Source: Eubacteriales bacterium (GTDB lineage: Bacteria; Bacillota; Clostridia; Oscillospirales; CAG-272). Taken from it: 58,113 bases of DNA. The translations under genes and the position numbers were made by a program. Positions 8,253-23,796 of this stretch are shown here, piece by piece; positions within the stretch are counted from its first letter, which is position 1, and each line of letters begins with the position of its first letter. The notes under the pieces are model-generated. The model was given only the letters and a program-made list of their open reading frames with translations, made no database searches and was not told the DNA's origin. The stretch covers positions 1-58,113 of the forward strand of contig JAZUAS010000046.1 in the NCBI GenBank assembly GCA_045638125.1, read 5' to 3'.

Positions 8253-8278
8253 TATCACATAACTCTCGTTATGTTATT
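8253..8278. repeat. Inverted repeat, right arm (IR-R) of candidate invertible element
   Basis: TATCACATAACTCTCGTTATGTTATT is the exact reverse complement of 8013-8038. Its spacer reads TCTC. Confidence 0.9.
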
Positions 8279-8313
8279 TTCATTCTCGGTGTATTCGCAT
8301 CGGGATTTTTTGT

Positions 8314-9156: not shown

Positions 9157-9316
9157 AAAACACGCTCCTTATATTGGTTTTTGCTTTTATTATTTTACCA
9201 AATCTTTGCTAATAATACTTTAAAATTTTAACAAATATGGTCGTTAATCTGGAATTTTAAGAGAGATCGGATCATAGACGGAATAATATAGCAATAGCAC
9301 TTTTTTAGACAAGAAA

Positions 9317-9345
9317 TATCCCCTTGAAGCCAAGCCTCAAGGGGA
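9317..9345 (-). terminator. Terminator hairpin after giant lipoprotein gene 1
   Basis: ATCCCCTTGAAG...CTCAAGGGGAT, 10 nt past the stop. The same hairpin sequence follows the paralog (13996-14025). Confidence 0.6.
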
Positions 9346-9354
9346 TCAAATTAT

Positions 9355-12300
9355 TTATTCAGCTGTAATTGCGTCGCCCGTTTTGGGGTCGATCAACGTT
9401 GACTCTGTACGTCCTGTGGAAAGAGTAACCTTGCTCATATCGCTCTCAAGCTCGTAAATATCATCGAGATTATTGGAGAATCCGATGTAAGCGATGTCGA
9501 AATAGACGTCTTCATCGCACGCAAAGTTGAAGAAGTCAAAGCGGAAATATTTCGCCACATATACTCCATCCTCGTTCTTTGCGTAGGTGTCAAGCCCTCT
9601 CGCCTCAAGATCGATAATAAGTATCTGCCATTCGCCGTCGGCAATTACCTGAGTGCCTGCGCCCTCGCAGTTATAGCAGTTTGCGGAATTGCTCGCCGCG
9701 CCGCCGTCGGTATTAAGGTAGAACTGCCAATAGTAGAACATCTTGGGTATGTCAGCGGGAATACGATATTTCAAAACGAGATATCTGCCTGTTTCCTTGA
9801 AATTGTTACGGAAAAGCTCGATTCTTGTTTCTTCCTCCACAGAACCTGCCAAGCGGATGTAATCGCGCTCCTCGGAGAGGGTTACCGAGCCGAAGTGTAC
9901 CTTGCCACGTCCTATCATATCGTCAAGCTCTGCGGCGTCCATGTGGAAATTAAGCTCCTCGTTGTTGAGAGTGCTTCTGTACTCAAAGTGATAAGATTTT
10001 TCAAAGAGTGCAACGGTATTGAGGTCTTTGTTGTATTCGAGAATATCGTCGAGGGAATCGTGGTAACCGATGTAAGAAACGTCAATGTAAGCGTTGGGAT
10101 TGCCTGACTCGTTGAATACGTCGAAGCGGAGATATTTAGCGTAATAGTTTCCGTCCTCGCTCTTCTTGAAGCTATCGGTCTTGCCGTATGCCTCGAGGTC
10201 TATAACGATGGTGTGCCACTGTCCGTCCGAAAGAACGGCTGCATCTGCGATATAATCCTGACCAACTATGAGAATGTTGCCGTCAGCATCGTAAACCGTG
10301 TTTTCGGTGGAGGTGTAGAACTGCCAGTAGGTTATCATGGAGTCGAGACCCTGAGGAACGCGGAACTTAAACACAAAATATCTGCCTGCAAGAATACCTT
10401 CCTCGTCCTCGAACACGACCATGGTTGACTCCGCGTTCGTTCCGTTTCTGTTAACACGAACGAAGTTTACACCGTCCTCGGACATAATCGAGTATTCTCC
10501 GAATCTGCTTGCCGCGTATGTAAAGGAGGCGTTGAGATCCTGGGGATCAAACCAAGCGTTAAAGGGATCGGGCTCTTCTATTATCTCGGGCCAGCCCTCA
10601 AAATCCTCAGCCGCGGTCACGCGGAACTTTCTCGGGGCACCGTTATCCATTGTTGTGATGAATGAGTAAGAGAATGTGCCGTCGCCGTCGTAGTAGACAC
10701 CGTATCCGTCGTACTGATGGCCGTATCCGAAGTTATCGGGAGTGCTGAGGGAAGAGATGTCTACAAGCTTCCATTCGCCGTCAACGTATTCTTCGATAAC
10801 GGGTGCAGTCAGCTTTTCAAAGCCATAAATTCTAACAGCTACGTTGTTGTGACCGCCCGAAAGAGTAAATTCTGCACTCTTGCCGTTGGTAGTCTTGACC
10901 TTGGGGAGGAATACGCTATCCATGATCGTGCAATCCTTATCAGCGGTTGCCTTCAAGGGATCAAGCAGGGTGTTTTCTCTGACTCTGCGAACGTTTTTGT
11001 CGGGCTCTACCTCATCGTATTCCTCGTAGCACTGCCACGGCATGATGATCGCGTTGATTGTGAAAGTGTCGCCTTTCTTAAGCTCTACCGCATCAAGGTC
11101 AAGGGAGAGAGAAAGCTCGGCAAAGTTGTTGATGAGGAGGAAAGAGGGATTGATCTTGTCGCCGCCGATCGTGAACTCGGCATTGTAGATCATAAAGGAG
11201 AGATTGTTATATCCTCTTGCCGCATCTCCGCAGTTTTCCATATCAAAGAAAGAGAAGTAGGGGCATTCGTCACCGAGAACGTATTCAAAGCTCTGGTCAC
11301 GGTCGGCTGCCTTTACAACCTTGGACTCGTTGTTAGTGTCAAGATAGCCAACCTTGGTGTAGAGTCCGCTGTAGTCAAGAGATTTTACCGAGTAGAAGGA
11401 GAAATCGTGTCCGAAATCGGTGAAGCTGATGTCTTCAAGAACCTCATACTTCATTTCGTAGTATGCACGGTTTTCATCGGTCTGTGGGAACTCCATATGA
11501 TTGTACGAAACCTTGATCTTACCGTCGTCGGAGATGAAATCCATGGTAACGTCGGCATAGATAGGACCGTAAGAGCCAATCCTATCGAGGATGTTCTCGG
11601 TTGCCGAATAGTTTCCGTCAGCATCGGTGTACTGCAAGAAGGAGTGAACGCCTGCGTAGGTACGCTGACAAACGTTAAACTGAACGGGACCCGACATAGG
11701 ACGGTGATCGGGGAGCATATTGAGTGTCTCGCCAAATCTGCAGAAATAGTAGGGAATAATACAGTTACTCTCGTGAACTCCGGTTGAAAGATGGTAGTAA
11801 GGAGCGTAATACTGGATCCAGGAGATCTGCTTCAAGGGATATTTACCCCAGTTGTAGTAAAGATTGAGTATGGAGTAGGTGTTGTCGGTGTCAGAGTTGA
11901 CTATCATAGGAAGGATAGTTTCGCTATACGGAGCGTCACCCTCATAGAACATGGGAGAGTCGCCGCCCTCACCGTAGTTCTTGCCGACTTCAATAGGTAT
12001 AGGGAGCATCATCTGATTTCCGTCAAGAAGCGCGGCGGTTTCAAGCGCGCCACCGCCTGTATAACTGGTCAGAATGTATATCTTGCGGTCGTTTGCGCCG
12101 TCACCCTTAATGTTCAAGGTGATGCTGAAATGTCTGTTAGGATAGAACAAATACGGACGAGAAAATCCTGCGTCGCCGTCGATGCTAAAGGTATAGCAGC
12201 CTCGGAGAGCATTGTAGCCTATGAACCCTCCACCGGGAGATGTCTTGGTATCAATAATGAAGTTTTCTTCACCGAGAGGATTGACCTCAAGCTCTGCCTC

Positions 12301-13797
12301 GACTATAAAGCGATCAAAGGTGTGGTAACGGTCGGTGTAGATTCGGTGACCCATATAGAAGTCGTTTGCGTTATTGGTGCCCTTGGGAGAGGTGCGGAGA
12401 GTCTGACCGTCGGGAGCCTTGGACTGTTCTATCTTATAGACACCGTCTTCAAGGGTTACGCGGATCGTTCCGCTCAAGCCGTCGTAGGGAAGAATGTAAC
12501 CGTAGATACCTACGCCCTTGATGTCAAATCCGACGTACTGAACGGTGTTCCAAGCAATACCCTTAAGGTCGTAGTGCAGACCGTTTCTATCCTTTATAAC
12601 GAAGCCACCTACACGGCTTTCTGGAATTTCGGTGATCATACCCACTGCCTGAACGTTTTCAACGTCGCGGAGTGTGGTTACTTGTAGAGTTTGATGAAGC
12701 TTGTCGGAGTATGTGTTGAACATACGGTTGAGGTAAACTTCCTTAGTGGGGGTAGCGTTAAGGTCTGCTTTAAGCACGCGGAGATCCTTGATAGCAAAGG
12801 TAGCGTCGATAGCGCCCTGCATAGGCAGAAAGTCAAAACGAAGTCCCGTTACTTGTCCAAAGTATCCGCTAATTTGGTAAAGCGGTATGTAATATGTATG
12901 GAATTCTCCGTCGGGGATTATTTCAACACCTAACGACTGAGCACTTGAAAAACCGGTGTTAGCTCCTGCCGTGATATATACGACAAAGCTTGAGGAGAAG
13001 TTTGAGTCGGCTTTCATGGTGAGCGATAGAACGTTATACTCGGATGCCGAGAAATTGACTTTCTTATAGGATATCCAGGGGTCTTGGTTGTTGGTGGCTT
13101 TGATAGCAATAGCGCCGTCCTCAACTCCGATATATTCAGTCATGTTGTATCTGAGGATGTTGTTTGCACCGAAGTTGAGCTTTTTACCCTTTTCGTCTTC
13201 AAATACGTAACCGTTACCGAAGTTTAAGCCCTCGATGCGGTTTTCGTAAAAGTAGTAGCCCATACGGAAGATATTTGCGATGCCGTCCGCTTGGGAATCA
13301 GACGCATAGTAGGTAGTGCCATCGGTCATACGGACGAAAACGTCCATAGTATTTTCTATGTAGTTGGCACCTGCCTTGTTGTCGATCGAGGTGATCAGCT
13401 TGGTGTTTTGAAGATCGCATGTCACGCCAACGTTCTTGTTTTCAAAGAAATAAGAGGATCTTGTGGGATCAGTAAAGTATGCGTTGACTCCGTTTGCGAT
13501 GCGGTCTGCATACTCGATATACTCGGCATTTTCGCCCTCGAGGAGGGAAGGATAGGTCTCCTCAACGTATCCGTCGTCGGGATCAGAGGTGCTTTCCTCG
13601 GACTCGTCGCCGCTTTCTGTGCTTGAAGACTCTTGATTATTGGAAGATTCTTCGTTGCCTGACGAACTTCCGCTCTCGGATGAGCTTTCGGTCTCTGTCT
13701 CGGAGTCGCCGAAAAGCCACGCGCAGGACGAAAGAACACTCGCGAACATTATCAAAGCGATAAGTAGTGATAAGATTCGTATGCATTTGATTTTCAT
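9355..13797 (-). CDS. Giant surface lipoprotein, unrecognised family (paralog 1), with two C-terminal ~150-aa repeat modules
   Basis: 1480 aa. The signal peptide has a lipobox-like LSSC (MKIKCIRILSLLIALIMFASVLSSC), followed by an S/E/D-rich linker, then a large conserved body. It ends with two modules of pattern GRYLV(L/F)K(Y/F)R(I/V)P..YWQFY...DG(E/Q)W..(L/I)(I/V)IDLEA......Y(V/Y)AKY(F/L)RFD(F/V)FN. Confidence 0.75.
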   Translation of the reverse strand: MKIKCIRILSLLIALIMFASVLSSCAWLFGDSETETESSSESGSSSGNEESSNNQESSSTESGDESEESTSDPDDGYVEETYPSLLEGENAEYIEYADRIANGVNAYFTDPTRSSYFFENKNVGVTCDLQNTKLITSIDNKAGANYIENTMDVFVRMTDGTTYYASDSQADGIANIFRMGYYFYENRIEGLNFGNGYVFEDEKGKKLNFGANNILRYNMTEYIGVEDGAIAIKATNNQDPWISYKKVNFSASEYNVLSLTMKADSNFSSSFVVYITAGANTGFSSAQSLGVEIIPDGEFHTYYIPLYQISGYFGQVTGLRFDFLPMQGAIDATFAIKDLRVLKADLNATPTKEVYLNRMFNTYSDKLHQTLQVTTLRDVENVQAVGMITEIPESRVGGFVIKDRNGLHYDLKGIAWNTVQYVGFDIKGVGIYGYILPYDGLSGTIRVTLEDGVYKIEQSKAPDGQTLRTSPKGTNNANDFYMGHRIYTDRYHTFDRFIVEAELEVNPLGEENFIIDTKTSPGGGFIGYNALRGCYTFSIDGDAGFSRPYLFYPNRHFSITLNIKGDGANDRKIYILTSYTGGGALETAALLDGNQMMLPIPIEVGKNYGEGGDSPMFYEGDAPYSETILPMIVNSDTDNTYSILNLYYNWGKYPLKQISWIQYYAPYYHLSTGVHESNCIIPYYFCRFGETLNMLPDHRPMSGPVQFNVCQRTYAGVHSFLQYTDADGNYSATENILDRIGSYGPIYADVTMDFISDDGKIKVSYNHMEFPQTDENRAYYEMKYEVLEDISFTDFGHDFSFYSVKSLDYSGLYTKVGYLDTNNESKVVKAADRDQSFEYVLGDECPYFSFFDMENCGDAARGYNNLSFMIYNAEFTIGGDKINPSFLLINNFAELSLSLDLDAVELKKGDTFTINAIIMPWQCYEEYDEVEPDKNVRRVRENTLLDPLKATADKDCTIMDSVFLPKVKTTNGKSAEFTLSGGHNNVAVRIYGFEKLTAPVIEEYVDGEWKLVDISSLSTPDNFGYGHQYDGYGVYYDGDGTFSYSFITTMDNGAPRKFRVTAAEDFEGWPEIIEEPDPFNAWFDPQDLNASFTYAASRFGEYSIMSEDGVNFVRVNRNGTNAESTMVVFEDEEGILAGRYFVFKFRVPQGLDSMITYWQFYTSTENTVYDADGNILIVGQDYIADAAVLSDGQWHTIVIDLEAYGKTDSFKKSEDGNYYAKYLRFDVFNESGNPNAYIDVSYIGYHDSLDDILEYNKDLNTVALFEKSYHFEYRSTLNNEELNFHMDAAELDDMIGRGKVHFGSVTLSEERDYIRLAGSVEEETRIELFRNNFKETGRYLVLKYRIPADIPKMFYYWQFYLNTDGGAASNSANCYNCEGAGTQVIADGEWQILIIDLEARGLDTYAKNEDGVYVAKYFRFDFFNFACDEDVYFDIAYIGFSNNLDDIYELESDMSKVTLSTGRTESTLIDPKTGDAITAE

Positions 13798-13840
13798 AAA
13801 ATTCAGATCCTTTCAAAAAATTGATATTCTAACCAGTCAA

Positions 13841-13869
13841 TTATATCATATTTTCAAAAACAAGTCAAC
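13841..13869 (-). promoter_or_regulatory. Promoter of giant lipoprotein gene 1
   Basis: On the minus strand: TTGACT (13869-13864), 17-nt spacer, TATAAT (13846-13841). Confidence 0.6.
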
Positions 13870-13873
13870 AACA

Positions 13874-13904
13874 TGTCCGAAAGATATAAAAAGATGTCCG
13901 AATT
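13874..13904. promoter_or_regulatory. Tandem direct repeats abutting the -35 (candidate AraC-type activator site)
   Basis: Plus-strand ATGTCCGAAA (13874-13883) and ATGTCCGAAT (13895-13904), 21 bp apart and 4 nt from the -35. The same arrangement occurs upstream of the paralog. Confidence 0.45.
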
Positions 13905-13995
13905 TCATATAAGATTTTCAGCTTGTTGGCATTTGTCTCCCGTTCGTTGGATTTTGCGGCGGTTGCTTATTTTGCCCCATTTTGAAATAAAACGA

Positions 13996-14025
13996 GATCC
14001 CCTTGAAGAAATCCTCAAGGGGATC
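13996..14025 (-). terminator. Terminator hairpin after giant lipoprotein gene 2
   Basis: GATCCCCTTGAAG-AAAT-CCTCAAGGGGATC, with a T-rich tract following on the minus strand. Confidence 0.6.
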
Positions 14026-14048
14026 AAATTTTTATTCGATAGAACTAT

Positions 14049-17000
14049 TTATTCAGCCGTGATCTCATTACCCGTTTTGGGGTCGATCTTGGTGGATTCC
14101 TTTTGCGCTGAGGAAAGGGTAACGTAGCTCATATCTGCTTCGTACTCGTAAATATCCTCAAGACTGTTGCCAAACGCTATATACGCTACGTCGTAGGAGA
14201 CGTCCGCGCTAAATTGAGAGTTGAAGAAATCAAATCTGAAAAATTTTGCTATGTACCTTTCGTCGTCGTTCTTGACGTAGGTGTCAAGTCCTCTCGCTTC
14301 AAGGTCAACGATAAGTACCTGCCATTCGCCGTCGGCAATTACATGAGTGCCGTATCCCTCGCAGGAATAAGCGTTTGAGCTGCCTGCCGCGCCGCCGTCG
14401 GTGTTAAGGTAGAACTGCCAGTAACCGAAGGGAGGTTGATCCGCCTTGGGAATACGGTATTTCAGCACGAGATAGCGTCCGGTTTCACGGAGAGCGTTCT
14501 TGAAAAATTCTACGGTCGCTTCGTTGCCTGTGCATCCTGAAAGGGTGATGTAATCACCGTTTTCTGAAAGGGTAACAGAATGGAATTTTGACTTGCTGGG
14601 AGTGATCGCTGTGTTAAGCTTTTCTGCGTCATAAACGCAATTAAAAACAGGATTGGGTGTGTTGTCGCCATCGGTCGTATCATCACCATCGGTAGTGTTG
14701 TCACCACCGGTAGTATCATCACCGCCGGTAGTATTGTCGCCACCGGTAGTATCGTCACCGCCGGTTGTATCACCAACTATCTCACTACCCGTTTTGGGAT
14801 CGATCTTAGTAGATTCCTTCTGCGCCGTGGAGAGAGTAACGTAGCTCATATCTGCTTCGTATTCGTAAATATCCTTGATATCGTTGGAGAAACCGATATA
14901 GGCTATATCGTAGCTGACCTCCGCGCCAAATTGAGAGTTGAAGAAGTCGAAGCGGAAATATTTCGCGACGTATTTACCGTCTTCGTTCTTGGCGTAGGTG
15001 CTGAGCCCTCTCGCCTCAAGGTCAACGATAAGCACCTGCCATTCGCCGTCGGCAATTACCTGAGTACCGACTCCCTCACAGCTATAGGCGTTCTCTCCCG
15101 AAGCCTTGCCGCCGTCAGTATTAAGGTAGAACTGCCAATAGCCAAGCTTTCCGGGGTTATCTTCGGGGATACGGTATTTCAGAATGAGATAGCGTCCCGT
15201 TTCCTTGGTATTATTATGTAAAAGCTCAACGATAGCCTCGCTGCCCACAGAGCCTGCGAAAGTGATGTAATTACGGTCGCCGGAGAGGGTTACCGAATGG
15301 AATCTGCCCTTGTAGTAATCAACTATAGCATCAAGCTCGCCGGCATCAAAGTGAAGATTCAGCGCCTCGTTGTTCTTGGTGCTTACGTGATTGAGGGTAT
15401 TGTTTGTAAAGAGCGCAACGGTAGGCATATCCGTCTTGTTGTATTCAAGAATCTCGTCAAGAGAATCGTGCATGCCTACGTATGCAACATCGATTATCGC
15501 GTCAGTTGCGTATTCCGGATTGAATACGTCAAAACGGAGATATTTGATATAATAGTTGCCGTCCTCGTCCTGCTTGTAGCATTCGGTTCTGTTTGCGTAG
15601 GATGCGAGGTCGATGACAATAACGTGCCAGTCTCCGTCCGAGAGGTTGGGAGCCGAGGCATTGAAGTCCTGACCGACTATAAGAATGTTGCCGTCAGCGT
15701 CATACATCGTGTTTTCGGTGGAGGTGTAGAACTGCCATGTGCCGATCTTTGCGGCTGAGCCCTGAGGAACTCTGAACTTGTAGACCAAATATCTTCCTGC
15801 CAAAGCGCCCTCTGCGTCCTCAAACAGGGCGAGAGTCGCCTCGGTGTTCTTGCCGTTACGGTTGACACGGATGAAGTTTATTCCGTTCTCGGACATCATA
15901 GAGAACTCGCCGAATCTTGCCGCCGATACGGTGAATTTTGCATTCAGATCCTGAGGATCCATCCAGAAATTCATAGGATCGGGTTCTTTGATGATTTCGG
16001 GCCAGCCCTCAAAATCCTCGGCTGCACTCACGCGGAATTTTCTATCAGCACCGTTGTCCATTGTTGTAATAAATGAGTAGGAGTATGTTCCGTCGCTGTC
16101 GTAGTAGACGCCGTAGCCGTCGTACTGATAGCCGTAGCCGAATGCGTCGGGAGTGCTGAGCGACGAGAGGTCAACAAGCTTCCATTCGCCGTCAACGTAT
16201 TCTTCAACGACGGGAACGGTTAACTTCTCAAAACCGTAAATTCTGACTGCCACGTTGTTGTGACCGCCCGAAAGGGTGAACTCTGCGCTTTTGCCGTTAG
16301 TGGTCTTTACCTTGGGCAAAAAGACGCTCTCGATGATCTCGCAGTCCTTGTCTGCAGTTGCCTTCAAGGGGTCAAGCAGAGTGTTTTCACGAACTCTGCG
16401 AACGTTCTTGTCGGGTTCTGCCACGTCGTACTCGTCGTAGTACTGCCAAGGCATGATGATCGCGTTGATGGTGAAGGTGTCGCCCTTCTTCAGCTCTACC
16501 GCCTCAAGATCGAGGGAGAGAGAAAGCTCGGCGAAGTTGTTAACAAGCAGGAAAGAGGGAGTGACCTTTTCGCCGCCCATTGTAAACTCGGCATTATAGA
16601 TCAAGAAGGAAAGGTTGTTGTAGCCTCTTGCCGTGTCGCCGCAGTTTGTCATATCGAAGAAGGAGAAGTAGGGGCAATTATTGCCGAGAACGTATTCGAA
16701 GCTCTCGCCACGTCCCGCCGCGGTGGCAACCTGCGACGCATTGTTTGTATCAAGGTAACCGACCTTTGAGTACAGACCGCTGGGGTCGAGTGATTTTACC
16801 GAATAGAAGGAGAAATCACGTCCGAAATCGGCGAAGCTGATGTCCTCAAGAACCTCATACTTCATTTCGTAGTAAGCGCGGTTCTCGTCGGTCTGGGGGA
16901 ACTCCATATGATTGTAGGAAACCTTTATTTTACCGTCATCGGATATGAAATCCATAGTAACGTCAGCGTAGATAGGACCGTAAGAGCCTATGGTGTCGAG

Positions 17001-19229
17001 GATATTCTCGGTTGCCGCGTAGTTACCGTCAGCGTCAGTGTACTGCAGGAAAGAGTGAACTCCGGCATACGTGTGCTGGGGGTCGCCCTCCCAGAAGGGA
17101 CCCGACATAGGACGGTGGTCGGGAAGCATATTAAGCGTCTCGCCCCACTGACAGAAATAGTAGGGAATAATGCAGTTACTCTCGTGAACGCCCGTGGAAA
17201 GGTGATAGTAGGGAGAGTAATACTGAATGAACGAGATCTGCTTAAGGGGATATTTACCCCAGTTGTAATAAAGGTTTACTATGGAATAGGTGCTGTCGGT
17301 ATCAGCGCCCACTATCATAGGAAGAATGGTTTCGCTGTATACGGGGTCACCCTCATAGAATATGGGAGAGTCGCCGCCCTCGCCGAAGTTCTTACCTACC
17401 TCAAGAGGAATAGGAAGCATCATCTGCTTGCCGTCGAGAATCGCCGCACATTCAAGTGATCCACCGCCTCGGTACTGTGCAAGAACGTAGATCTTACGGT
17501 CGTTCACACCGTCGCCCTTGAGATTGAAGGTGACGTTATACTGACGGTTCTGGTGGAGCTTGTAGGGAGGGCCAAAGCCGCCTACACCGTCTATGTTAAG
17601 GGTATAGCAGCCGCGGAGAGCGTCGTAGCCGACGAACTCGCCAAAGGTGGAGGCTTCACCGTCGATGATGAAGTTTTCTGCACCAAGAGGATTGACCTCA
17701 AGCTCCGCCTCTACTATAAAGCGATCAAAGGTGTGGTAACGGTCGTTGTAAATACGGTGACCCATGTAGAAGTCGTTGGCATTATTTGTGCCCTTCAGTG
17801 ACGCGCGGAGCGTTTGACCGTCGGGAGCCTTGGTCTGTTCGATCTTGTAAACTCCGTCAACGAGTGTCACGCGGATTGTGCCGCCCGAACCGTCATAGGG
17901 CAGAATGTAACCGTAAATTCCAACGCCCTTGATGTCAAATCCGACGTACTGAACGGTATTCCAAGCAATACCCTTAAGGTCGTAGTGCAAGCCGTTTCTG
18001 TCCTTTATAACGAAGCTGCCCACACGATTTTCGGGAATCTCTGTAACTATACCAACTGCCTGAACGTTTTCAACGTCCTTTTGCGCGGCAAACTGGAGAG
18101 TCTGGTGGAGTTTGTCGGAGTATGTGTTGAACATACGGTTGAGATAAAGCTCCTGGGTGGGGGTGGCACTGAGGTCTGCCTTAAGCACGCGGAGGTCCTT
18201 GATTGCCAAGGTTGCGTCGATAGCGCCCTGCATAGTCATAAAGTCAAGACGAAGTCCGGTTACCTGACCTGCGAAGCCACTGATCTTATAGAGAGGGATG
18301 TAGTAAGTGTGATATTCGCCGTCGGGAATGATGTCATAGCCTAACGACTGCTCGCTTGAGAATGCAGTGTTGCTTCCCGAGTTCGCGCCCGCAACGATAT
18401 AGACCGCAAGATTCGAGGAGAAGTTCTGGTCTGCCTTCATGGTGATTGCCAGAACGTTGTATTCGGATGCCGAAAAAGAGATGTTTTTATAGGAGAACCA
18501 AGGGTCTTGGTTGTTGGTGACTTTGATCGCGATACCGCCGTCCTCAACTCCGATATATTCGGTCATGTTGTATCTGAGGATGTTGTTTGCGCCGCAGTTA
18601 AGCTTTTTCTCCTTACCGTCTACGAACTTGTAGCCATCGTTAAAGGAGAGACCCTCAATGCGGTTTTCGTAATAGTAGTAGCCCATACGGAAGATGTTGG
18701 CGATGGCATCCTTGTCGGAATCCGACGCATAGTATATAGTGCCGTCGGTCATGCGGACGAAAACATCCATAGTGTTTTCTATGTAGTTGCCTCCCGCCTT
18801 GTTACCGATCGAGCTTATCAGCTTGGTGTTTTCAAGGTCACAGGTCACGCAAACGTTCTTATTTTCAAAGTAATAAGAAGTTCTCGTGGGATCGGTAAAG
18901 TATGCGTTGACTCCGTTTGCGATACGATCTGCATACTCAATAAATTCTGCGTTATCGCCGTCTATTAGGGAAGGATTGGTTTCCTCAACGTATCCGTCAT
19001 CGGGATCAGAGGTGCTTCCCTCGGACTCGTCGCCGCCCTCGGTGTCGCTGCTCTCGGTTTTGTTGCTCTCAGAGGAGCTTTCAGAGCTTGACGAGCTGCC
19101 GCTCTCGGATGAGCTTTCGGTGCCGGTCTCAATCAGATCGCCAAAAAGATCTGCGCAAGACGAAAGAACGCCTGCCGCCATAATCAGTGCGATAAGAAGC
19201 GACAAGATTCGTGTGCTTTTGATTTTCAT
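14049..19229 (-). CDS. Giant surface lipoprotein, unrecognised family (paralog 2), with three C-terminal repeat modules and a T/G/D-rich linker
   Basis: The ORF-track frame 14049-19247 starts at TTG. The ATG at 19229 (MKIKSTRILSLLIALIMAAGVLSSC) aligns with the paralog start and follows AAAGGA. It is collinear with 9355-13797 at high amino-acid identity and has one extra C-terminal module. Confidence 0.75.
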   Translation of the reverse strand: MKIKSTRILSLLIALIMAAGVLSSCADLFGDLIETGTESSSESGSSSSSESSSESNKTESSDTEGGDESEGSTSDPDDGYVEETNPSLIDGDNAEFIEYADRIANGVNAYFTDPTRTSYYFENKNVCVTCDLENTKLISSIGNKAGGNYIENTMDVFVRMTDGTIYYASDSDKDAIANIFRMGYYYYENRIEGLSFNDGYKFVDGKEKKLNCGANNILRYNMTEYIGVEDGGIAIKVTNNQDPWFSYKNISFSASEYNVLAITMKADQNFSSNLAVYIVAGANSGSNTAFSSEQSLGYDIIPDGEYHTYYIPLYKISGFAGQVTGLRLDFMTMQGAIDATLAIKDLRVLKADLSATPTQELYLNRMFNTYSDKLHQTLQFAAQKDVENVQAVGIVTEIPENRVGSFVIKDRNGLHYDLKGIAWNTVQYVGFDIKGVGIYGYILPYDGSGGTIRVTLVDGVYKIEQTKAPDGQTLRASLKGTNNANDFYMGHRIYNDRYHTFDRFIVEAELEVNPLGAENFIIDGEASTFGEFVGYDALRGCYTLNIDGVGGFGPPYKLHQNRQYNVTFNLKGDGVNDRKIYVLAQYRGGGSLECAAILDGKQMMLPIPLEVGKNFGEGGDSPIFYEGDPVYSETILPMIVGADTDSTYSIVNLYYNWGKYPLKQISFIQYYSPYYHLSTGVHESNCIIPYYFCQWGETLNMLPDHRPMSGPFWEGDPQHTYAGVHSFLQYTDADGNYAATENILDTIGSYGPIYADVTMDFISDDGKIKVSYNHMEFPQTDENRAYYEMKYEVLEDISFADFGRDFSFYSVKSLDPSGLYSKVGYLDTNNASQVATAAGRGESFEYVLGNNCPYFSFFDMTNCGDTARGYNNLSFLIYNAEFTMGGEKVTPSFLLVNNFAELSLSLDLEAVELKKGDTFTINAIIMPWQYYDEYDVAEPDKNVRRVRENTLLDPLKATADKDCEIIESVFLPKVKTTNGKSAEFTLSGGHNNVAVRIYGFEKLTVPVVEEYVDGEWKLVDLSSLSTPDAFGYGYQYDGYGVYYDSDGTYSYSFITTMDNGADRKFRVSAAEDFEGWPEIIKEPDPMNFWMDPQDLNAKFTVSAARFGEFSMMSENGINFIRVNRNGKNTEATLALFEDAEGALAGRYLVYKFRVPQGSAAKIGTWQFYTSTENTMYDADGNILIVGQDFNASAPNLSDGDWHVIVIDLASYANRTECYKQDEDGNYYIKYLRFDVFNPEYATDAIIDVAYVGMHDSLDEILEYNKTDMPTVALFTNNTLNHVSTKNNEALNLHFDAGELDAIVDYYKGRFHSVTLSGDRNYITFAGSVGSEAIVELLHNNTKETGRYLILKYRIPEDNPGKLGYWQFYLNTDGGKASGENAYSCEGVGTQVIADGEWQVLIVDLEARGLSTYAKNEDGKYVAKYFRFDFFNSQFGAEVSYDIAYIGFSNDIKDIYEYEADMSYVTLSTAQKESTKIDPKTGSEIVGDTTGGDDTTGGDNTTGGDDTTGGDNTTDGDDTTDGDNTPNPVFNCVYDAEKLNTAITPSKSKFHSVTLSENGDYITLSGCTGNEATVEFFKNALRETGRYLVLKYRIPKADQPPFGYWQFYLNTDGGAAGSSNAYSCEGYGTHVIADGEWQVLIVDLEARGLDTYVKNDDERYIAKFFRFDFFNSQFSADVSYDVAYIAFGNSLEDIYEYEADMSYVTLSSAQKESTKIDPKTGNEITAE
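14655..14775 (-). repeat. In-frame 18-nt tandem repeat (~6.7 units) encoding a (TTGGD[D/N]) linker
   Basis: Units run GGTAGTATCATCACCGCC / GGTAGTATTGTCGCCACC and so on. Translation is GDTTGGDDTTGGDNTTGGDDTTGGDNTTDGDDTTDGDNT. Confidence 0.85.
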
Positions 19230-19268: not shown

Positions 19269-19297
19269 ATTATATCGTAATCTATAAATCAAGTCAA
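19269..19297 (-). promoter_or_regulatory. Promoter of giant lipoprotein gene 2
   Basis: On the minus strand: TTGACT (19297-19292), 17-nt spacer, TATAAT (19274-19269). Confidence 0.6.
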
Positions 19298-19301: not shown

Positions 19302-19331
19302 ATGTCCGAAAAGTATAATAATTGTCCCAAA
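19302..19331. promoter_or_regulatory. Tandem direct repeats abutting the -35 (candidate AraC-type activator site)
   Basis: Plus-strand ATGTCCGAAA (19302-19311) and TTGTCCCAAA (19322-19331), 20 bp apart and 4 nt from the -35. Confidence 0.45.
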
Positions 19332-19361: not shown

Positions 19362-20225
19362 TTATGCATCGGACTTCTTGTCTTTATCTATGTTGCGACG
19401 GAAATCGCTGGGGGTCATTCCAGTATGTTTCATGAAAAATTTTCCAAAATAATTTGCGCTGGAAAAGCCTAATTTGTCGCTGATATCGTCTATAAACTCG
19501 TCGGTTTCCATCACCATTCGTTTAGCTTCCTCTATCTTTTGACCGTGAATGAACGACAAAAGCGAGGTGTTTTCATACAGGGAGAAGAGTCTGCCAAGCT
19601 GCTTTGAGCTGAGATTGCAGTAGCGAGCTACCTCGTCGCAGGAGAGAAACAGGTGGGGATTGTCTTCGATGTATTTTTTTGCCTTTATAAGACGCATATC
19701 GTATTCGTCGTTGTGTATGGTAGGGCGAATTCTCGTGCTTTCGGCTATGGCGTAAATGATCTCGCAAAGTCTGTTTTTTATCATCACATCCGAATAGGGA
19801 GTCTTGTTCGTTGCCTTACGAAGTATGAAAGATAAGGACTCTGTAAGCTCGTCGCCCATTTGTATTATACACTTATTTTTACTTTTGAGAATATCACGCA
19901 GCTCACTATCGCTTTTCAACTCAAATGCTACTGTTATTTTTTGGAAGTTGTCGCTTTCCTGGGGAATGCAGTGTATAGTGCGAGGAGAGATAAGCATAAT
20001 GCTGTTTTCACCGACGCTCACGTCACAGTTCTTAAAGCGGTAAACAATACTTCCGCTGGTTACGATGTGCATTTCAAAGAAGGTGTGATTGTGAGGCTTG
20101 GAGTTTAGATAAAATTTATTCTCGCTGCAAGCTGCATTCATCCAAAGGATTTCGGGATCGGATCCGAAAACGTTTTCGTTGGGCAAGTTTACCTTGTTTA
20201 TAGCATCAATAATTGCATTTTTCAA
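19362..20225 (-). CDS. AraC/XylS family transcriptional regulator (cupin sensor domain plus double HTH)
   Basis: 287 aa. The N-terminus has cupin-like HNHTFFEMHIVTSGSIVYRF. The C-terminus has an AraC-type HTH (LSCDEVARYCNLSSKQLGRLF...FSSANYFGKFFMKHTGMTPSDFR). Confidence 0.85.
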   Translation of the reverse strand: MKNAIIDAINKVNLPNENVFGSDPEILWMNAACSENKFYLNSKPHNHTFFEMHIVTSGSIVYRFKNCDVSVGENSIMLISPRTIHCIPQESDNFQKITVAFELKSDSELRDILKSKNKCIIQMGDELTESLSFILRKATNKTPYSDVMIKNRLCEIIYAIAESTRIRPTIHNDEYDMRLIKAKKYIEDNPHLFLSCDEVARYCNLSSKQLGRLFSLYENTSLLSFIHGQKIEEAKRMVMETDEFIDDISDKLGFSSANYFGKFFMKHTGMTPSDFRRNIDKDKKSDA

Positions 20226-20482: not shown

Positions 20483-22777
20483 TTAGATTATTTTGTATGC
20501 TTTTCCTCTCGCATTGTCGGTCTCAATCAAAAATTCTTTTCCACCAACAGAAAGTGCGATGTCGTTTCTTGTCTGGGTAGGGTCGCAGACCGTCATAGAG
20601 GTTGTTTTTCCGTCCTCGCCCCGTTTCATCATAGCAATAAGAGCGTGTTTCGCCTTAACACCGCACATTTCACCCGCTTCACGGAAGACTATGCCGTAAA
20701 GTGCGCTTGATTTTTCGCGCGCGGCGTGAATTTTGCCGTTTGACGAGAGAATTTCAACGTCGCTTGCATCATAGTCGGCAGTTTCTTGCTCGTTGGCGTT
20801 CAGAAGTATGAGGTAGACGTATTTTTCGTCCTCGGGGTCGATTCCGTGGTCAAGATAAATTGCTACGAAGCGAAGACCGTCCTTTTCGTAGAATTTCACC
20901 TTGATATTACCGCCCTCGGGGAAGATAAATCCGCCGACGTGTGGGATAAATATCTTTTGCGCCGTAAGGGTCATTTCGCCAACGGCAAAGGGGATTGCGA
21001 CTCCGTCTGCAAGGATGTTCTCATCCGCTTCAAGCACACGGTTTTCAACTATGGTGCGAACGGGGTAGCCGTCATGAGCCACGATATCTGTGCCGAGACA
21101 GAGAATTGCTCGATCAAAGAAGAAGTAGCTCTTATTTGCGGTCAGAGTGCAGTGATAAACGGGCAAGCTCCTACCGGCGCCCGTGTCGGGTCTGCCCTCG
21201 TCGATTTCGTTGTGGAATGATTCGTAGTCCATGCTTGCCGACAGATATTTGCCGTCAAGACAAACACCACCGACGAAATCTCGGTTGGGTCGCCATCCGC
21301 AGTTGAAGAACATTATCTCTCGCTCGCGGTCTTCGACGGTGGTGCCCGGGATCATAGTCTTGTCGGCGCCCTGCCACCATTCGGGGGAATATTCCTCAAA
21401 GCCCGTGGGGGTGTATAGATAAAGCGCACCGTCGCCCGTGTACCATCCGTCACCGTTGTCGCCGTTCATACATTCGTAGGCGATTGAGCGACGGGAAGGC
21501 ATACGGAGACCGATCATTGAGGAGTGGCGGTGCTGGACGCAGATGTCGCCCGAGTACCACATATAGGCATAGTCGGGGGAGTTTACGTCATATTTTTCGT
21601 TGGTCAACGCTTCGTAAAAATGAGCGTACGCGCAGATATTGGTTTTTGGACATTCTGCGGCGCGAGTGCCGGGCAAGGAGTTGATCTTTCGGTATTTCTC
21701 AAGGGTGGTGCCGCTGTCGTAGGTGGAGATAAGCTGCTCGCGAACCTCGGGGGAGTCATTACAACGGATCAGACGATTGATCTCGTGGTCAAACTCCTCG
21801 CCGAAAAGACCGTACAGATAGTGGACCTCACGGAGAATGCTTGCGGCGCAGTTATCGTACTGCATCGCTCTGCCGTTCATCGGCGCTAACGTGCGTCCAC
21901 GGTACATGACGGGAGCAAACGTATAGCGGAGCATTCCTTTAAGATTGTCCAGATTTTGCAAGGGATAGGCGAGAGGGGAACGGGAGAGTATCTGAACCGT
22001 CTTTCCTATGCGGGAGAGATTGATGACACCGTAGGCTACATTATATGGCATACCGTGGGTCATACAGCAAAAATCCCTTCGCATATTGTCTCCGCTGTCG
22101 TGGGCTTCAAGAAGCATTTCGCACTCTTCAAAAAGTTTTTGGAGAAGTTCTCTGTTCTCGGTTATGAGTGCAAGGGGAGTCAGAGTGACTATCCTTGACA
22201 TCGCCTCGGCGTTGGTGGGAGCGGTTCTCATTTTGTCACTTAGAAAGGCAACCGGTGTGATATATTTTTTAGTGAGATCAGGCGTGATCGAATCCTCTAC
22301 TATTATAAGAATGTCCATAAGAGGACAAGCCGCGCCTACGTACCAATCCCACCAATCGTAATCTTTCCAAGAACGGAAACTTGTGTCGGTGACCACGTTT
22401 TCGCCGTACATATTATCGTGCAGCCAATTGAGGGCGTAGAGGATGTCGGAGAGAAGCTCCTTTGACTGATAGGAACGGCAGCCGATAGTGCCAAATGGCA
22501 GAGCCATACGCAGAACGCGGTCGTATTGAAGCTTTAATTCGCCCGATGCGGTCGGTGCTTTATCGCCGAAAAGGATCGGGGCGTCAGGACCTCGGTTTAT
22601 CTCTTGACGCAGGCTCTCACTGTCCTTGTCACGCATGCGGAGCAATTCGCTCATTCCTTTTACAGATAGGGAATTATTCTTCTCGTCACCGCAGAGATCG
22701 AGTCGCCAGCTTGCCCTTGCTGATTTGAAATCATCGGCGGTAAAAAGGGCGGTGTCGTACGTTTTATTGTTGTTCAT
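20483..22777 (-). CDS. Polysaccharide lyase family 8-like protein (hyaluronate/chondroitin/xanthan lyase family), no signal peptide
   Basis: Start placed at ATG 22777 (MNNNKTYD), after AAGGAAAG. DYDWWDWYVGAACP resembles the PL8 WWDWEIG block. RRDFCCMTHGMPYNVAYGV resembles DGSF.QH...Y.G.YG. Its ~765-aa size fits an alpha-toroid plus beta-sandwich fold. Confidence 0.6.
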   Translation of the reverse strand: MNNNKTYDTALFTADDFKSARASWRLDLCGDEKNNSLSVKGMSELLRMRDKDSESLRQEINRGPDAPILFGDKAPTASGELKLQYDRVLRMALPFGTIGCRSYQSKELLSDILYALNWLHDNMYGENVVTDTSFRSWKDYDWWDWYVGAACPLMDILIIVEDSITPDLTKKYITPVAFLSDKMRTAPTNAEAMSRIVTLTPLALITENRELLQKLFEECEMLLEAHDSGDNMRRDFCCMTHGMPYNVAYGVINLSRIGKTVQILSRSPLAYPLQNLDNLKGMLRYTFAPVMYRGRTLAPMNGRAMQYDNCAASILREVHYLYGLFGEEFDHEINRLIRCNDSPEVREQLISTYDSGTTLEKYRKINSLPGTRAAECPKTNICAYAHFYEALTNEKYDVNSPDYAYMWYSGDICVQHRHSSMIGLRMPSRRSIAYECMNGDNGDGWYTGDGALYLYTPTGFEEYSPEWWQGADKTMIPGTTVEDREREIMFFNCGWRPNRDFVGGVCLDGKYLSASMDYESFHNEIDEGRPDTGAGRSLPVYHCTLTANKSYFFFDRAILCLGTDIVAHDGYPVRTIVENRVLEADENILADGVAIPFAVGEMTLTAQKIFIPHVGGFIFPEGGNIKVKFYEKDGLRFVAIYLDHGIDPEDEKYVYLILLNANEQETADYDASDVEILSSNGKIHAAREKSSALYGIVFREAGEMCGVKAKHALIAMMKRGEDGKTTSMTVCDPTQTRNDIALSVGGKEFLIETDNARGKAYKII

Positions 22778-22779
22778 AT

Positions 22780-23796
22780 TTACTTTCCTTGCGCCATAGC
22801 GAGGCATTCTTCAAACAAAATTTCGTGCATACGCATGATTTCTTCGTATGTTCGGGGTGTGCCGACGGGATCGTCGAGTATGCCCTCGTTGCTCTCATAG
22901 CATGCCGAAACTGCACCGCAGACGTGGTGAGTTGCACTGATGAGATTGAATGACAGAGGATTTTCGCCCGAGGGGATTCCGGGTATTGCTCCACGGAAGA
23001 ATTCAAGTCCTTCATTGTCACCAACTCTTTGGCAACGCTGATAAAGCTCGTCGATAGCGAGTGAGCATTCTTTTGTTACGTAGTCGGTGGGGAGCATACC
23101 GCCCTTTATATTTCCACCGCCGTGCAAATTGAGTACAAAATCGGCGCATTCGTCCTCGCAAATGTCGAGTATCGCCTGCGTTTCACGAGCCTTTGGGTGG
23201 AAGAAGTTGTCGTGCATAAGGTTTATGCCGTCATCATTGTAGTAGCCGCCGAGAAAGCCTGCCGCGTCCTTTATGGGATGGATCTTTTTACAGTCGGGCC
23301 ATCCGCAAAGCGAGCCGTCTGCCCAAGTGCCTTGACCCCAATAGCGGAACTCCTCAAAGCTTTTGCCTATCATCGAATCGGGCTTGACTCTTGCGCGTCC
23401 GTCGGGATTGGCAATGGGAACTATGACTAAACGGACGCCTTTTACGAGCGAAAGCAGCTTTTCGTTGGTCTTTCCCATAAGGTCGACTCCGGTTTCGAGG
23501 AGGGAGATCAGATTTGTGATCGCCGCAACGCCCTCGGTCTCCTGTCCGTGGACTGCACCTATAAGTATAACGCAGGGCTTTTGTCCCCTGGGCGAAAAGC
23601 AACCCTTATCTCTGCCGCCGAGAGCGGAGGAGTAGTTTGCGGTGCCGTGAGCTTTTTTTTCGCCGTAAGCCAGCATATATACGGGTCGGTCGCCCGCGCT
23701 TTGGCATAAAATGCGCTTTTCCGAGCAGTTTTTGGCATTCGTATAAATGTCCTTGATGTATTCAAGATCTGTTTTCCAGAAATCGGGAATAAACAT
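22780..23796 (-). CDS. M14 metallocarboxypeptidase-like protein (zinc carboxypeptidase fold), cytoplasmic
   Basis: 338 aa. It has IGAVHGQETEG (H-x-x-E zinc motif), ANPDGR and LNLHGGG (second His region). There is no signal peptide. Confidence 0.55.
   Translation of the reverse strand: MFIPDFWKTDLEYIKDIYTNAKNCSEKRILCQSAGDRPVYMLAYGEKKAHGTANYSSALGGRDKGCFSPRGQKPCVILIGAVHGQETEGVAAITNLISLLETGVDLMGKTNEKLLSLVKGVRLVIVPIANPDGRARVKPDSMIGKSFEEFRYWGQGTWADGSLCGWPDCKKIHPIKDAAGFLGGYYNDDGINLMHDNFFHPKARETQAILDICEDECADFVLNLHGGGNIKGGMLPTDYVTKECSLAIDELYQRCQRVGDNEGLEFFRGAIPGIPSGENPLSFNLISATHHVCGAVSACYESNEGILDDPVGTPRTYEEIMRMHEILFEECLAMAQGK

What the first reader, a model, noticed from the sequence alone, without database searches (positions are those of the whole stretch)
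9355..19229. Tandem pair of giant (1480 and ~1726 aa) paralogous surface lipoproteins of unrecognised family with repeated C-terminal modules
Both proteins start with a lipoprotein-type signal (VLSSC), then an S/E/D-rich low-complexity tether. A ~1100-aa body follows, in which I recognise no catalytic or binding family (conserved blocks include YNWGKYPLKQIS.IQYY.PYYHLSTGVHESNCIIPYYF and LNMLPDHRPMSGP). They end in 2 or 3 copies of a ~150-aa module (GRYLVLKYRIP..YWQFYLNTDGG...IADGEWQVLIVDLEARGL.TY.KN.D..Y.AK.FRFDFFN) that looks like a jelly-roll or CBM-type unit. The genes are collinear with high identity, have duplicated promoters and terminators, and together occupy about 17% of the contig. 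They sit next to an AraC regulator and a PL8-like lyase, which suggests a cell-surface glycan capture or degradation apparatus of a new type.
Basis: partly seen in the sequence, partly recalled or inferred. Interest (0 to 1): 0.65.

Follow-up and report, generated by a model that had tools for sequence, protein, structure and literature searches.

The report
New giant surface glycan-processing lipoproteins
Two neighbouring genes encode 1480- and 1726-residue lipid-anchored surface proteins of a rare family that no database describes; it is multiplied up to about 20 times per genome in uncultured herbivore-gut Clostridia, and gene neighbourhoods link it to the breakdown of rhamnose- and uronic-acid-containing polysaccharides.

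Summary
Genes A (9355-13797, -) and B (14049-19229, -) encode 1480- and 1726-aa lipoproteins that are 78% identical. Each has its own near-consensus promoter and hairpin terminator. A carries 2 and B carries 3 C-terminal ~190-aa modules.

No Pfam, NCBIfam or PDB sequence profile matches the body or the modules. AlphaFold2 gives a confident all-beta body (pLDDT 89.8). Foldseek finds only partial similarity: OpgG/OpgD (GH186), the GH36 N-domain, GalM and CBM86/28. The most conserved 320-aa central domain, with about 30 residues invariant across Clostridia, Paenibacillus and a Spirochaetota MAG, has no significant PDB match.

The family is small (279 clusters among 1.84 billion representatives) but expanded to at least 13-20 copies in single ruminant-gut MAGs, often in tandem arrays. 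A GH78 rhamnosidase gene lies directly next to family genes in at least 6 independent lineages across three bacterial groups. Rare relatives carry CBM4_9 or dockerin.

Orthologues of A/B keep the block M14 - PL8 (xanthan-lyase-like, no signal peptide) - AraC - lipoprotein. They also keep a TTTCGGACA motif that abuts the -35 box.

Best reading: a new family of AraC-induced surface proteins that act on carbohydrates, probably depolymerases. Catalysis, substrate and expression are not shown.

The parts
9355..13797 (-). Gene A: 1480-aa lipoprotein, the more diverged paralogue (75-76% identical to orthologues in other species)
14049..19229 (-). Gene B: 1726-aa lipoprotein, the copy closest to the single-copy orthologues (84-87% identity to L011 and L007)
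13723..13797 (-). A aa 1-25: signal peptide and lipobox (VLSSC). The Cys is invariant in 28 relatives.
13546..13722 (-). A aa 26-84: S/E/D-rich low-complexity tether
12331..13545 (-). A aa 85-489: N-terminal beta-sandwich region, interrupted by a variable inserted module (aa about 205-350, nt 12748-13185, LRFDF motif). By elimination, this is the part that gives the OpgG, GH36 N-domain and GalM Foldseek hits.
11371..12330 (-). A aa 490-809: the most conserved central all-beta domain. It holds about 30 invariant, mostly polar residues (WG..PLKQ.S, YYH.STG..E..C, D.R..S, E.PQ.DE.R). No significant PDB fold match.
10573..11370 (-). A aa 810-1075: two conserved beta-sandwich domains
9988..10566 (-). 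A C-terminal module 1 (aa 1078-1270)
9403..9957 (-). A C-terminal module 2 (aa 1281-1465)
15393..15977 (-). B C-terminal module 1 (aa 1085-1279)
14814..15365 (-). B C-terminal module 2 (aa 1289-1472)
14659..14772 (-). 18/36-nt tandem repeat that encodes the TTGGDD/TTGGDN linker between B modules 2 and 3
14097..14651 (-). B C-terminal module 3 (aa 1527-1711), 66% identical to module 2
13840..13868 (-). Promoter of A (TTGACT-17-TATAAT, with a TG extension)
13873..13902 (-). Two direct TTCGGACAT repeats 21 bp apart that abut the -35 box of A. Candidate operator for the AraC-type activator.
19269..19297 (-). Promoter of B (TTGACT-17-TATAAT)
19302..19331 (-). TTCGGACAT at 19302-19310 plus a degenerate distal copy, abutting the -35 box of B. 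The motif is conserved upstream of orthologues in four other MAG species.
13996..14025 (-). Intrinsic terminator of B
9318..9346 (-). Intrinsic terminator of A, with the same stem sequence as that of B
19362..20225 (-). AraC-family regulator (AraC_binding + HTH_18) with its own promoter (20298-20270) and terminator (19379-19350). It is conserved immediately upstream of the orthologues.
20483..22807 (-). PL8 lyase with all three PL8 domains. Closest solved relatives are the xanthan lyases. The catalytic Asn/His/Tyr are conserved. No signal peptide.
22780..23796 (-). M14-like peptidase gene that overlaps the PL8 start. It is conserved in the syntenic locus L011.

Best explanation
A and B are cell-surface lipoproteins of a previously undescribed family of proteins that act on carbohydrates. 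The family is extracytoplasmic, multi-modular and all-beta.

Proposed mechanism, with each step marked:
1. (Inferred) A sugar-derived signal is sensed by the adjacent AraC-type regulator.
2. (Inferred) The regulator binds the TTTCGGACA repeats that abut the -35 boxes and activates both monocistronic genes.
3. (Shown by sequence) Each protein is exported and lipid-anchored at the invariant Cys, and is held away from the membrane by an acidic Ser-rich tether.
4. (Inferred) The fast-evolving jelly-roll-like modules bind the polymer. These are one inserted module and 2-3 C-terminal ones, with 0-9 C-terminal modules across the family.
5. (Inferred) The conserved core, namely a GalM/OpgG-like N-terminal sandwich plus the invariant central domain, binds and most likely cleaves a complex glycan that contains uronic acid and/or rhamnose.
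6. (Inferred) The fragments are imported and finished by cytoplasmic enzymes. For this subfamily that enzyme is the linked PL8, which is xanthan-lyase-like. For other subfamilies it is a GH78 alpha-L-rhamnosidase.

Neither the substrate nor the chemistry (hydrolase or lyase) is known.
For: Surface location: signal peptide and lipobox with an invariant Cys. 189 of 259 relatives have a lipobox-like N-terminus, and the rest have variant lipoboxes, plain signal peptides or TM anchors.

Functional genes: dN/dS is 0.14.

Fold: the body model is confident (pLDDT 89.8, pTM 0.87). It gives Foldseek probability-1.0 hits to OpgG/OpgD (GH186, in which the all-beta OpgD is itself the catalytic enzyme; PMC10514313), GH36, GalM, CBM86 and CBM28.

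Active-site-like conservation: about 30 mostly polar residues of the central domain are invariant between Clostridia, Paenibacillus and a Spirochaetota MAG at 34-40% overall identity. Peripheral modules evolve fastest: 29-33% mean pairwise identity against 45-57% for the core, and 67% against 81-91% between A and B.

Fusions: one relative has 2x CBM4_9 plus a dockerin-like segment (P0258). Another has Dockerin_1 at E 5e-9 (P0157).

Neighbourhoods: 15 GH78-type ORFs occur among 646 non-family ORFs. A GH78 gene lies immediately adjacent, 86-431 bp away on the same strand, in 7 loci. These loci represent at least 3 sub-lineages. The same adjacency is seen in L076 (with RhaM, a GDSL esterase, GH4 and melibiase), in Paenibacillus senegalensis (with ABC permeases) and in a Spirochaetota MAG (with AraC and sulfatases).

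AraC regulators are the most frequent flanking family (8 of 130 flanking ORFs).

For A/B specifically: the M14-PL8-AraC-lipoprotein order is conserved in other species. The PL8 catalytic residues are intact. The promoter and TTTCGGACA motif are conserved, and this motif occurs only three times in the window, all at these two promoters (0.42 expected).
Against: - There is no sequence or significant structural match to any known catalytic domain. The central domain's best PDB hit has E 4.7e-3 and TMq 0.20.
- The OpgG and GH36 similarity is low in TM-score (0.15-0.38) and involves a fold that is often non-catalytic.
- The conserved block holds no transporter. Many paralogues sit alone among housekeeping genes.
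- No RNA data set containing the genes was found.
- The C-terminal module fold was not modelled.
- CAZy/dbCAN models could not be searched, so membership of a recent CAZy family that lacks a Pfam model or a structure is not excluded.
- The invariant residues could not be mapped onto the model, because no coordinates were available.
Confidence: 0.55

Rival explanations
1. The proteins are non-catalytic surface glycan-binding or capture proteins, or adhesins. They would be analogous to Bacteroides SGBPs or Gram-positive substrate-tethering proteins: they hold polysaccharide or plant particles at the cell surface, and other enzymes do the cutting.
For: All recognisable structural neighbours other than OpgG/OpgD are binding or accessory beta-sandwiches: CBM86, CBM28, the GH36 N-domain, reelin repeats, and tail-fibre-like strings in the viral library. 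No catalytic family was detected. The module copy number varies from 0 to 9, as in avidity-driven binders.
Against: About 30 mostly polar residues are invariant across distant bacterial groups in one domain. That is unusual for binders that diversify towards different ligands. Fusion of the body to CBM4_9 would be redundant for a pure binder. The loci with GH78, RhaM and esterase contain only exo-acting or debranching enzymes and no recognisable endo-acting enzyme. No transporter is consistently adjacent.
Confidence: 0.25
2. The proteins serve the cell's own envelope. They would anchor, trim or remodel the bacterium's own exopolysaccharide, capsule or wall polymer and would not act on nutrients.
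For: The A/B block lies about 5 kb from a large EPS biosynthesis cluster (28841-55805). In the orthologous loci L011 and L007 the block abuts a divergent Bac_transf/acyltransferase cluster. The paralogue P0025 sits between the glp operon and the head of a homologous EPS cluster. Lyases are common companions of EPS loci (established knowledge, for example AlgL).
Against: EPS genes are not enriched among the 130 nearest neighbours, whereas GH78 and AraC are. 13-20 paralogues per genome is far more than the number of EPS loci one would expect. Induction by an AraC-type activator and linkage to a cytoplasmic PL8 fit catabolism better.
Confidence: 0.1
3. The proteins are a variable surface-coat or decoy family. 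They would be antigenic or phage-receptor variants, or an S-layer-like coat, whose multiplication reflects an arms race and not substrate diversity.
For: Tandem arrays of up to six paralogues and at least 13-20 copies per genome. The outer modules evolve fast. Some arrays lie next to TerB/BrxC-type defence genes. A recombinase gene lies beside gene A.
Against: No inverted repeats flank the A or B promoter, so there is no inverton. Each copy has its own strong promoter and terminator. dN/dS is 0.14, with no sign of diversifying selection even in the modules (0.17-0.22). The core is strongly conserved across distant groups. The links to GH78, CBM and dockerin are unexplained by this reading.
Confidence: 0.07

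Closest known systems
OpgG/OpgD (MdoG superfamily, GH186 beta-1,2-glucanases; PDB 1txk, 8ip1, 8ip2; PMC10514313)
   Same: These are the best enzyme hits for the body model (Foldseek probability 1.0, 440-607 aligned columns). They are all-beta proteins that act on a glycan outside the cytoplasm. They show that a protein of this all-beta type can itself carry the active site.
   Different: TM-scores are only 0.16-0.20 on the query and 0.31-0.38 on the target, with 7-9% identity. No sequence or profile hit was found in Pfam or PDB. The similarity lies outside the family's most conserved domain. OpgG/D are about 500-aa periplasmic proteins of Gram-negative bacteria that work in glucan biosynthesis.
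Multi-modular surface-attached or cellulosomal CAZymes of Gram-positive polysaccharide degraders (catalytic core plus CBMs, anchored by lipid, sortase, SLH or dockerin; established knowledge)
   Same: The overall logic matches: an exported giant protein, a tether, a conserved core and a variable number of beta-sandwich modules. Genes are monocistronic and scattered in the genome, and there are many paralogues. Some relatives carry CBM4_9 or dockerin.
   Different: The core belongs to no known GH, PL or CE family detectable here. The repeated module is family-specific and matches no CBM model.
Bacillus sp. GL1 and Paenibacillus xanthan and gellan degradation schemes: an extracellular depolymerase followed by PL8 xanthan lyase or GH78 rhamnosidase (PDB 1j0m, 6f2p; PMC7953866 for the gellan pathway)
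   Same: The downstream enzymes are of the same kind. The linked PL8 is closest to xanthan lyases (E 4e-39) with its catalytic residues conserved. GH78 is linked to other family members.
   Different: Known xanthanases (GH5, GH9) and gellan lyases (PL33) are unrelated folds. The PL8 here is cytoplasmic. No GH88/GH105, GH38 or transporter genes lie in the block.
Accessory beta-sandwich domains of GH36 and GH38, GalM, and PL26 exo-rhamnogalacturonan lyase
   Same: They recur as Foldseek neighbours of the body (GH36 N-domain, GalM). GH38 and PL26 are weak neighbours of the central domain.
   Different: In those enzymes catalysis lies in a separate TIM-barrel or other domain that is absent here. 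The hits to the central domain are not significant (E of at least 4.7e-3, TMq about 0.2).

Membership tests
Bacterial lipoproteins (Lgt/LspA substrates) | An N-terminal signal peptide that ends in a lipobox [LVI][ASTVI][GAS]-C | tested here: met
   A has ...FASVLSSC and B has ...AAGVLSSC. The Cys is invariant in 28 aligned relatives. 189 of 259 family proteins fit a lipobox pattern.
GH186 / MdoG superfamily (OpgG, OpgD) | Sequence membership, meaning a match to the MdoG family model or to OpgG/D sequences | tested here: not met
   No Pfam hit for A, B or 28 relatives. The family profile against PDB sequences, which include OpgG and OpgD, gives nothing.
GH186 / MdoG superfamily (OpgG, OpgD) | The same fold, with the catalytic acid (D388 of EcOpgD) and the substrate pocket conserved | tested here: inconclusive
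   Foldseek probability 1.0 but TMt 0.31-0.38 and rmsd about 20 A. No residue-level superposition was available, so the catalytic position could not be checked.
Known CBM families (e.g. CBM4_9, CBM86, CBM28) for the inserted and C-terminal modules | A match to a CBM sequence model | tested here: not met
   There are only sporadic sub-threshold hits: Agarase_CBM at E 0.049, and Laminin_G_2 and SGBP_B_XBD in 1-2 members. The module profile against PDB gives nothing.
Known CBM families for the C-terminal modules | A beta-jelly-roll fold with a ligand-binding face | not tested
The only support is an hhalign link to the internal module (probability 58.6%, E 9.5e-5 over 50 columns) and CBM86/CBM28 hits somewhere in the body model.
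Known GH/PL/CE catalytic families (Pfam-covered, including PL4 Rhamnogal_lyase and GH78) | A match to the family model | tested here: not met
   CAZy/dbCAN-only families could not be searched.
Polysaccharide lyase family 8 (neighbouring gene 20483-22807) | Lyase_8_N, Lyase_8 and Lyase_8_C domains, and the catalytic Asn/His/Tyr | tested here: met
   Pfam E-values are 1.3e-25, 1.8e-43 and 8.7e-08. Asn194, His246 and Tyr255 of Bacillus GL1 xanthan lyase align with identical residues.
AraC/XylS transcription activators (neighbouring gene 19362-20225) | An N-terminal cupin ligand-binding domain and a C-terminal double HTH | tested here: met
   AraC_binding at E 6.3e-07 and HTH_18 at E 5.2e-19. Binding to the TTTCGGACA repeats is inferred only.
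Gram-positive polysaccharide utilisation locus | A regulator, a transporter and degradative enzymes co-localised | tested here: not met
   The conserved block M14-PL8-AraC-lipoprotein has no transporter. The Paenibacillus locus L081 does have ABC permeases.
Phase-variable surface protein loci (invertons) | Inverted repeats that flank the promoter, with an invertase nearby | tested here: not met
   No inverted repeat flanks either promoter. The inverted-repeat pair near the recombinase (8013-8278) belongs to a different, downstream gene set.

The most novel reading that the evidence does not exclude
The invariant central domain, possibly together with the OpgG-like N-terminal sandwich, is the catalytic module of a wholly new all-beta family of polysaccharide-cleaving enzymes (a new CAZy GH or PL family). 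This family, multiplied to 13-20 or more surface-anchored paralogues per genome, would be the main depolymerase arsenal of a group of uncultured herbivore-gut Clostridia for rhamnose- and uronic-acid-containing glycans such as pectic RG-I, gums or microbial EPS.
Probability: 0.35. Interest if true: 0.75.

Novelty: new variant of a known kind. Interest (0 to 1): 0.58.

Why it matters
If the core is catalytic, it defines a new carbohydrate-active enzyme family with a fold not represented among solved structures. That would assign a function to hundreds of giant 'hypothetical proteins' that take up several percent of the coding capacity of abundant but uncultured ruminant and pig gut Clostridia.

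It would also fill a gap. Loci that contain only exo-acting or debranching enzymes (GH78, RhaM, esterases, a cytoplasmic PL8) currently lack a recognisable endo-acting partner.

Two cultured Paenibacillus species carry homologues, so the hypothesis can be tested directly.

If the proteins only bind glycans, they would still be a new class of Gram-positive surface glycan-binding proteins.

Tried and rejected
- Sequence and profile searches found nothing. These covered Pfam, NCBIfam, PDB by phmmer and PDB by profile, for the whole proteins, 28 relatives and the C-terminal module.
- Foldseek of the isolated central domain found no significant hit. Foldseek of the body against the viral library gave only generic tail-fibre-like strings of beta-sandwiches with TM of at most 0.16. 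A phage-derived origin is rejected.
- Gellan lyase was considered because of the GH78 link. It belongs to PL33 (PMC7953866), and nothing here matches a known lyase model. Rejected.
- An inverton or phase-variation mechanism for A/B is rejected, because no inverted repeats flank the promoters.
- Recent duplication or gene conversion is rejected (dS about 1.0).
- The 991-aa ORF at 24402-27377 (-), which could be read as part of the operon, is an antisense artefact of glpA-like genes.
- The search for RNA-seq runs found none.
- Literature searches for a description of the family found none.
- The attempt to see inversion of the inverted-repeat-flanked segment near the recombinase in metagenome contigs was inconclusive.
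- One Pfam scan of the 78-sequence alignment failed on a size limit and was redone with 28 sequences.
Full report
1. THE OBSERVATION

The two ORFs exist as described. A is 9355-13797 (-), 1480 aa. B is 14049-19229 (-), 1726 aa from the ATG that follows an AAAGGA ribosome-binding site.

Both start with a signal peptide that ends in the lipobox L-S-S-C, followed by an S/E/D-rich tether. They are 78% identical over their whole length.

A Nei-Gojobori comparison gives dN 0.14, dS 1.04 and dN/dS 0.14. The duplication is therefore old, and both copies are kept by purifying selection.

A module HMM finds two C-terminal modules in A and three in B (E of 1e-55 to 1e-63). The modules are about 190 aa. 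The extra module of B follows an 18/36-nt tandem repeat that encodes a TTGGDD linker.

Each gene has a near-consensus sigma-70-type promoter (TTGACT-17-TATAAT) and a nearly identical hairpin terminator.

Pfam confirms the neighbouring AraC regulator and the three-domain PL8 lyase.

2. AN UNRECOGNISED FAMILY

A, B, 28 diverse relatives and the family profile match nothing meaningful in Pfam, NCBIfam or the sequences of solved structures. The same holds for a profile of the C-terminal module.

All relatives found are unnamed or called 'hypothetical protein'. The two from cultured Paenibacillus are named only after an appended fn3 domain.

An exhaustive phmmer search with the central domain against 1.84 billion representative proteins finds only 279 clusters, 180 of them at E of 1e-30 or better. 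The family is compact and rare.

3. ARCHITECTURE

AlphaFold2 with a 78-sequence alignment gives a confident all-beta model of aa 75-1100 (pLDDT 89.8, pTM 0.87).

Foldseek against the PDB gives probability-1.0 but low-TM hits to:
- OpgG/OpgD (GH186 beta-1,2-glucanases)
- GH36 alpha-galactosidases (255-337 aligned columns of their roughly 720 residues)
- GalM mutarotase
- CBM86 and CBM28
- reelin repeats

The region with the densest invariant residues (aa 490-809) was modelled alone (pLDDT 85.6). It has no significant PDB neighbour. The best hits are E 4.7e-3 and TMq 0.20, to GH38 and PL26 beta-domains.

By elimination, the OpgG/GH36/GalM-like part is the N-terminal region (aa about 85-489). That region is interrupted by a variable inserted module (aa about 205-350).

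The inserted module shares an ...LRFDF... motif with the C-terminal modules. A weak profile link connects them (hhalign probability 58.6%).

Conservation is layered:
- The core domains average 45-57% pairwise identity.
- The inserted and C-terminal modules average 29-33%.
- Between A and B the values are 81-91% for the core and 67-68% for the modules.

About 30 mostly polar residues of the central domain stay invariant between Clostridia, Paenibacillus and a Spirochaetota MAG. They fall in the motifs WG..PLKQ.S, YYH.STG..E..C, D.R..S and E.PQ.DE.R. This is the signature of an active or ligand site, but I could not map it onto coordinates.

4. DISTRIBUTION

A scan of one genome per species returned 184 relatives on 69 loci. 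All are from MAGs labelled Eubacteriales, Clostridia, Oscillospiraceae or Clostridium sp.; the records that name a host are from sheep, cattle and roe deer. The window itself is found in bovine, pig and manure metagenomes.

Single MAGs carry many copies:
- at least 20 in SGB_4764
- about 17 in fecal_MAG_346
- about 13 in SGB_2190

Tandem arrays of two to six genes are common.

The C-terminal module number ranges from 0 to 9, and proteins reach 4372 aa.

Most members are lipoproteins. Some have plain signal peptides or TM anchors. Two carry dockerins, and one of these also has two CBM4_9 domains.

5. GENOMIC CONTEXT

Many paralogues stand alone among housekeeping genes. This is usual for secreted CAZymes of Clostridia and argues against a PUL-type operon.

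Two associations recur.

(i) AraC-family regulators are the commonest flanking family (8 of 130 flanking ORFs).

(ii) GH78 alpha-L-rhamnosidase genes are enriched about ten-fold over the roughly 0.2-0.3% of genes that I would expect by rule of thumb (my own estimate, not a tool result):
- 15 occur among 646 non-family ORFs.
- In seven loci they lie 86-431 bp downstream on the same strand. These loci fall in three sub-lineages that are only about 42% identical to each other.
- The pairing recurs in L076, together with RhaM, a GDSL esterase, GH4 and melibiase.
- It recurs in Paenibacillus senegalensis, with four ABC permeases.
- It recurs in a Spirochaetota MAG, in the order AraC-GH78-member, flanked by sulfatase genes.

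For A/B themselves, the orthologues of at least 62% identity in four other MAG species keep the AraC gene immediately upstream. Two of them keep the PL8 and one keeps the M14 gene as well.

Their promoters share ATAT-TTTCGGACA directly against the -35 box. In the window, TTCGGACAT occurs three times, and only at these two promoters (0.42 expected). Upstream of A it forms two direct repeats 21 bp apart, the geometry of a class II AraC-type activator site (inference).

The PL8 is closest to xanthan lyases (E 4e-39) and keeps the catalytic Asn, His and Tyr. It has no signal peptide. It is therefore a cytoplasmic enzyme that would act on imported oligosaccharides.

In the syntenic locus L011 there is one lipoprotein gene, 84% identical to B. 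The region between it and the Na:Ala symporter gene differs from the window. B is therefore the ancestral-position orthologue and A is the extra, more diverged copy.

6. INTERPRETATION

The best-supported reading is a new family of surface-exposed proteins that act on carbohydrates. A and B would be AraC-induced, lipid-anchored and tethered by an acidic linker. They would use their variable jelly-roll-like modules to hold a polymer and their invariant core to bind it and probably cleave it. Products would go to cytoplasmic PL8 (this subfamily) or GH78 (other subfamilies).

Shown:
- the export and lipid-anchoring signals
- purifying selection
- the all-beta modular architecture
- the conserved polar constellation
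- the gene-neighbour associations
- the promoter and motif conservation

Inferred:
- regulation by AraC
- glycan binding
- catalysis
- the substrate class

The main rival is a non-catalytic glycan-binding role. Less likely rivals are a role on the cell's own EPS (EPS clusters lie near the A/B-type loci) and a variable surface coat. There are no invertons at the A/B promoters and no diversifying selection.

7. NOVELTY

No database model, no solved relative and no paper describe the family. Its most conserved domain lacks a structural neighbour in the PDB.

The kind of system is familiar: a giant modular surface protein for glycans in a Gram-positive gut bacterium. I therefore rate it a new variant of a known kind, with a 0.35 chance that it is a genuinely new catalytic family.

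The main caveats are that CAZy-specific models and AlphaFold DB could not be searched, and that there is no expression or biochemical evidence.

Noticed in passing
window 7978-8278 (with the recombinase gene 8314-9156 and genes 3026-7900, minus strand): A 214-nt segment (8039-8252) is flanked by perfect 26-nt inverted repeats (8013-8038 / 8253-8278), with a third partial copy at 7978-8001. It lies directly beside a XerC/D-like tyrosine recombinase gene. It looks like an invertible switch in front of a minus-strand operon: a small Cys-rich ORF, a SipW-like signal peptidase (6805-7611, NCBIfam E 7e-14), and 235-, 567- and 409-aa proteins with no family. Metagenome unitigs break exactly at the repeat borders, but no inverted joint was seen.
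   Followed up: partly
window 3026-9300: This low-GC block (0.39-0.40) is absent from the syntenic locus L011. There, a 571-aa and a 202-aa ORF lie between the lipoprotein gene and the Na:Ala symporter gene. The site is a variable island next to gene A.
   Followed up: partly
window 24402-27377 (-): The 991-aa ORF on the minus strand is an antisense artefact. The real genes are on the plus strand: a glpA-like FAD oxidoreductase (24612-26045), a Pyr_redox protein (26061-27302) and the GlpP antiterminator (27876-28454).
   Followed up: yes
window 28841-55805 (+): The ORFs scanned up to 40504 mark a polysaccharide-biosynthesis cluster: DegT aminotransferase, Bac_transf priming transferase, GT4 transferases and, unusually, five ATP-grasp ligases (three of the 'sugar-transfer associated' type). 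This suggests an amino-acid-decorated acidic polymer. The same-strand ORF run continues to 55805 but was not scanned. A homologous cluster follows the family paralogue P0025 in L078.
   Followed up: no
window 20483-23796 (-): The PL8 lyase has no signal peptide, and its start overlaps by 28 nt the end of an M14-like peptidase gene. The pair is conserved in L011. A cytoplasmic M14 + PL8 pair is unusual and unexplained.
   Followed up: partly
L001 (GCA_965333495.1, contig CBDPTM010000021.1): Six family genes stand head-to-tail (1679, 1491, 1665, 1457, 1466 and 1505 aa). Together they fill at least 25 kb with nothing else between them.
   Followed up: partly
P0177 (4372 aa), P0184 (2970 aa), P0180 (2896 aa): These family members carry 5-9 C-terminal modules and no Pfam domain at all. 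They are among the largest 'dark' bacterial surface proteins seen here.
   Followed up: partly
L082 (Spirochaetota MAG JACRPF010000019.1) 5217-14918: The gene order is sulfatase - AraC - GH78 - family member - sulfatase. This hints at a sulfated rhamnose-containing substrate (ulvan- or rhamnan-sulfate-like) for that distant member.
   Followed up: no
L002, L003/L004, L080: In several MAGs a 2-3-gene family array sits at a fixed site between radA and a TerB / BrxC-like ATPase / DEAD-helicase set that looks like a defence island.
   Followed up: no
flanks of family genes in L007-L075: TMEM164/YwaF-family membrane proteins (6 of 130 flanking ORFs) and xylose-isomerase-like TIM-barrel proteins (4 of 130) also recur beside family genes. 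Their relation to the family is unknown.
   Followed up: no
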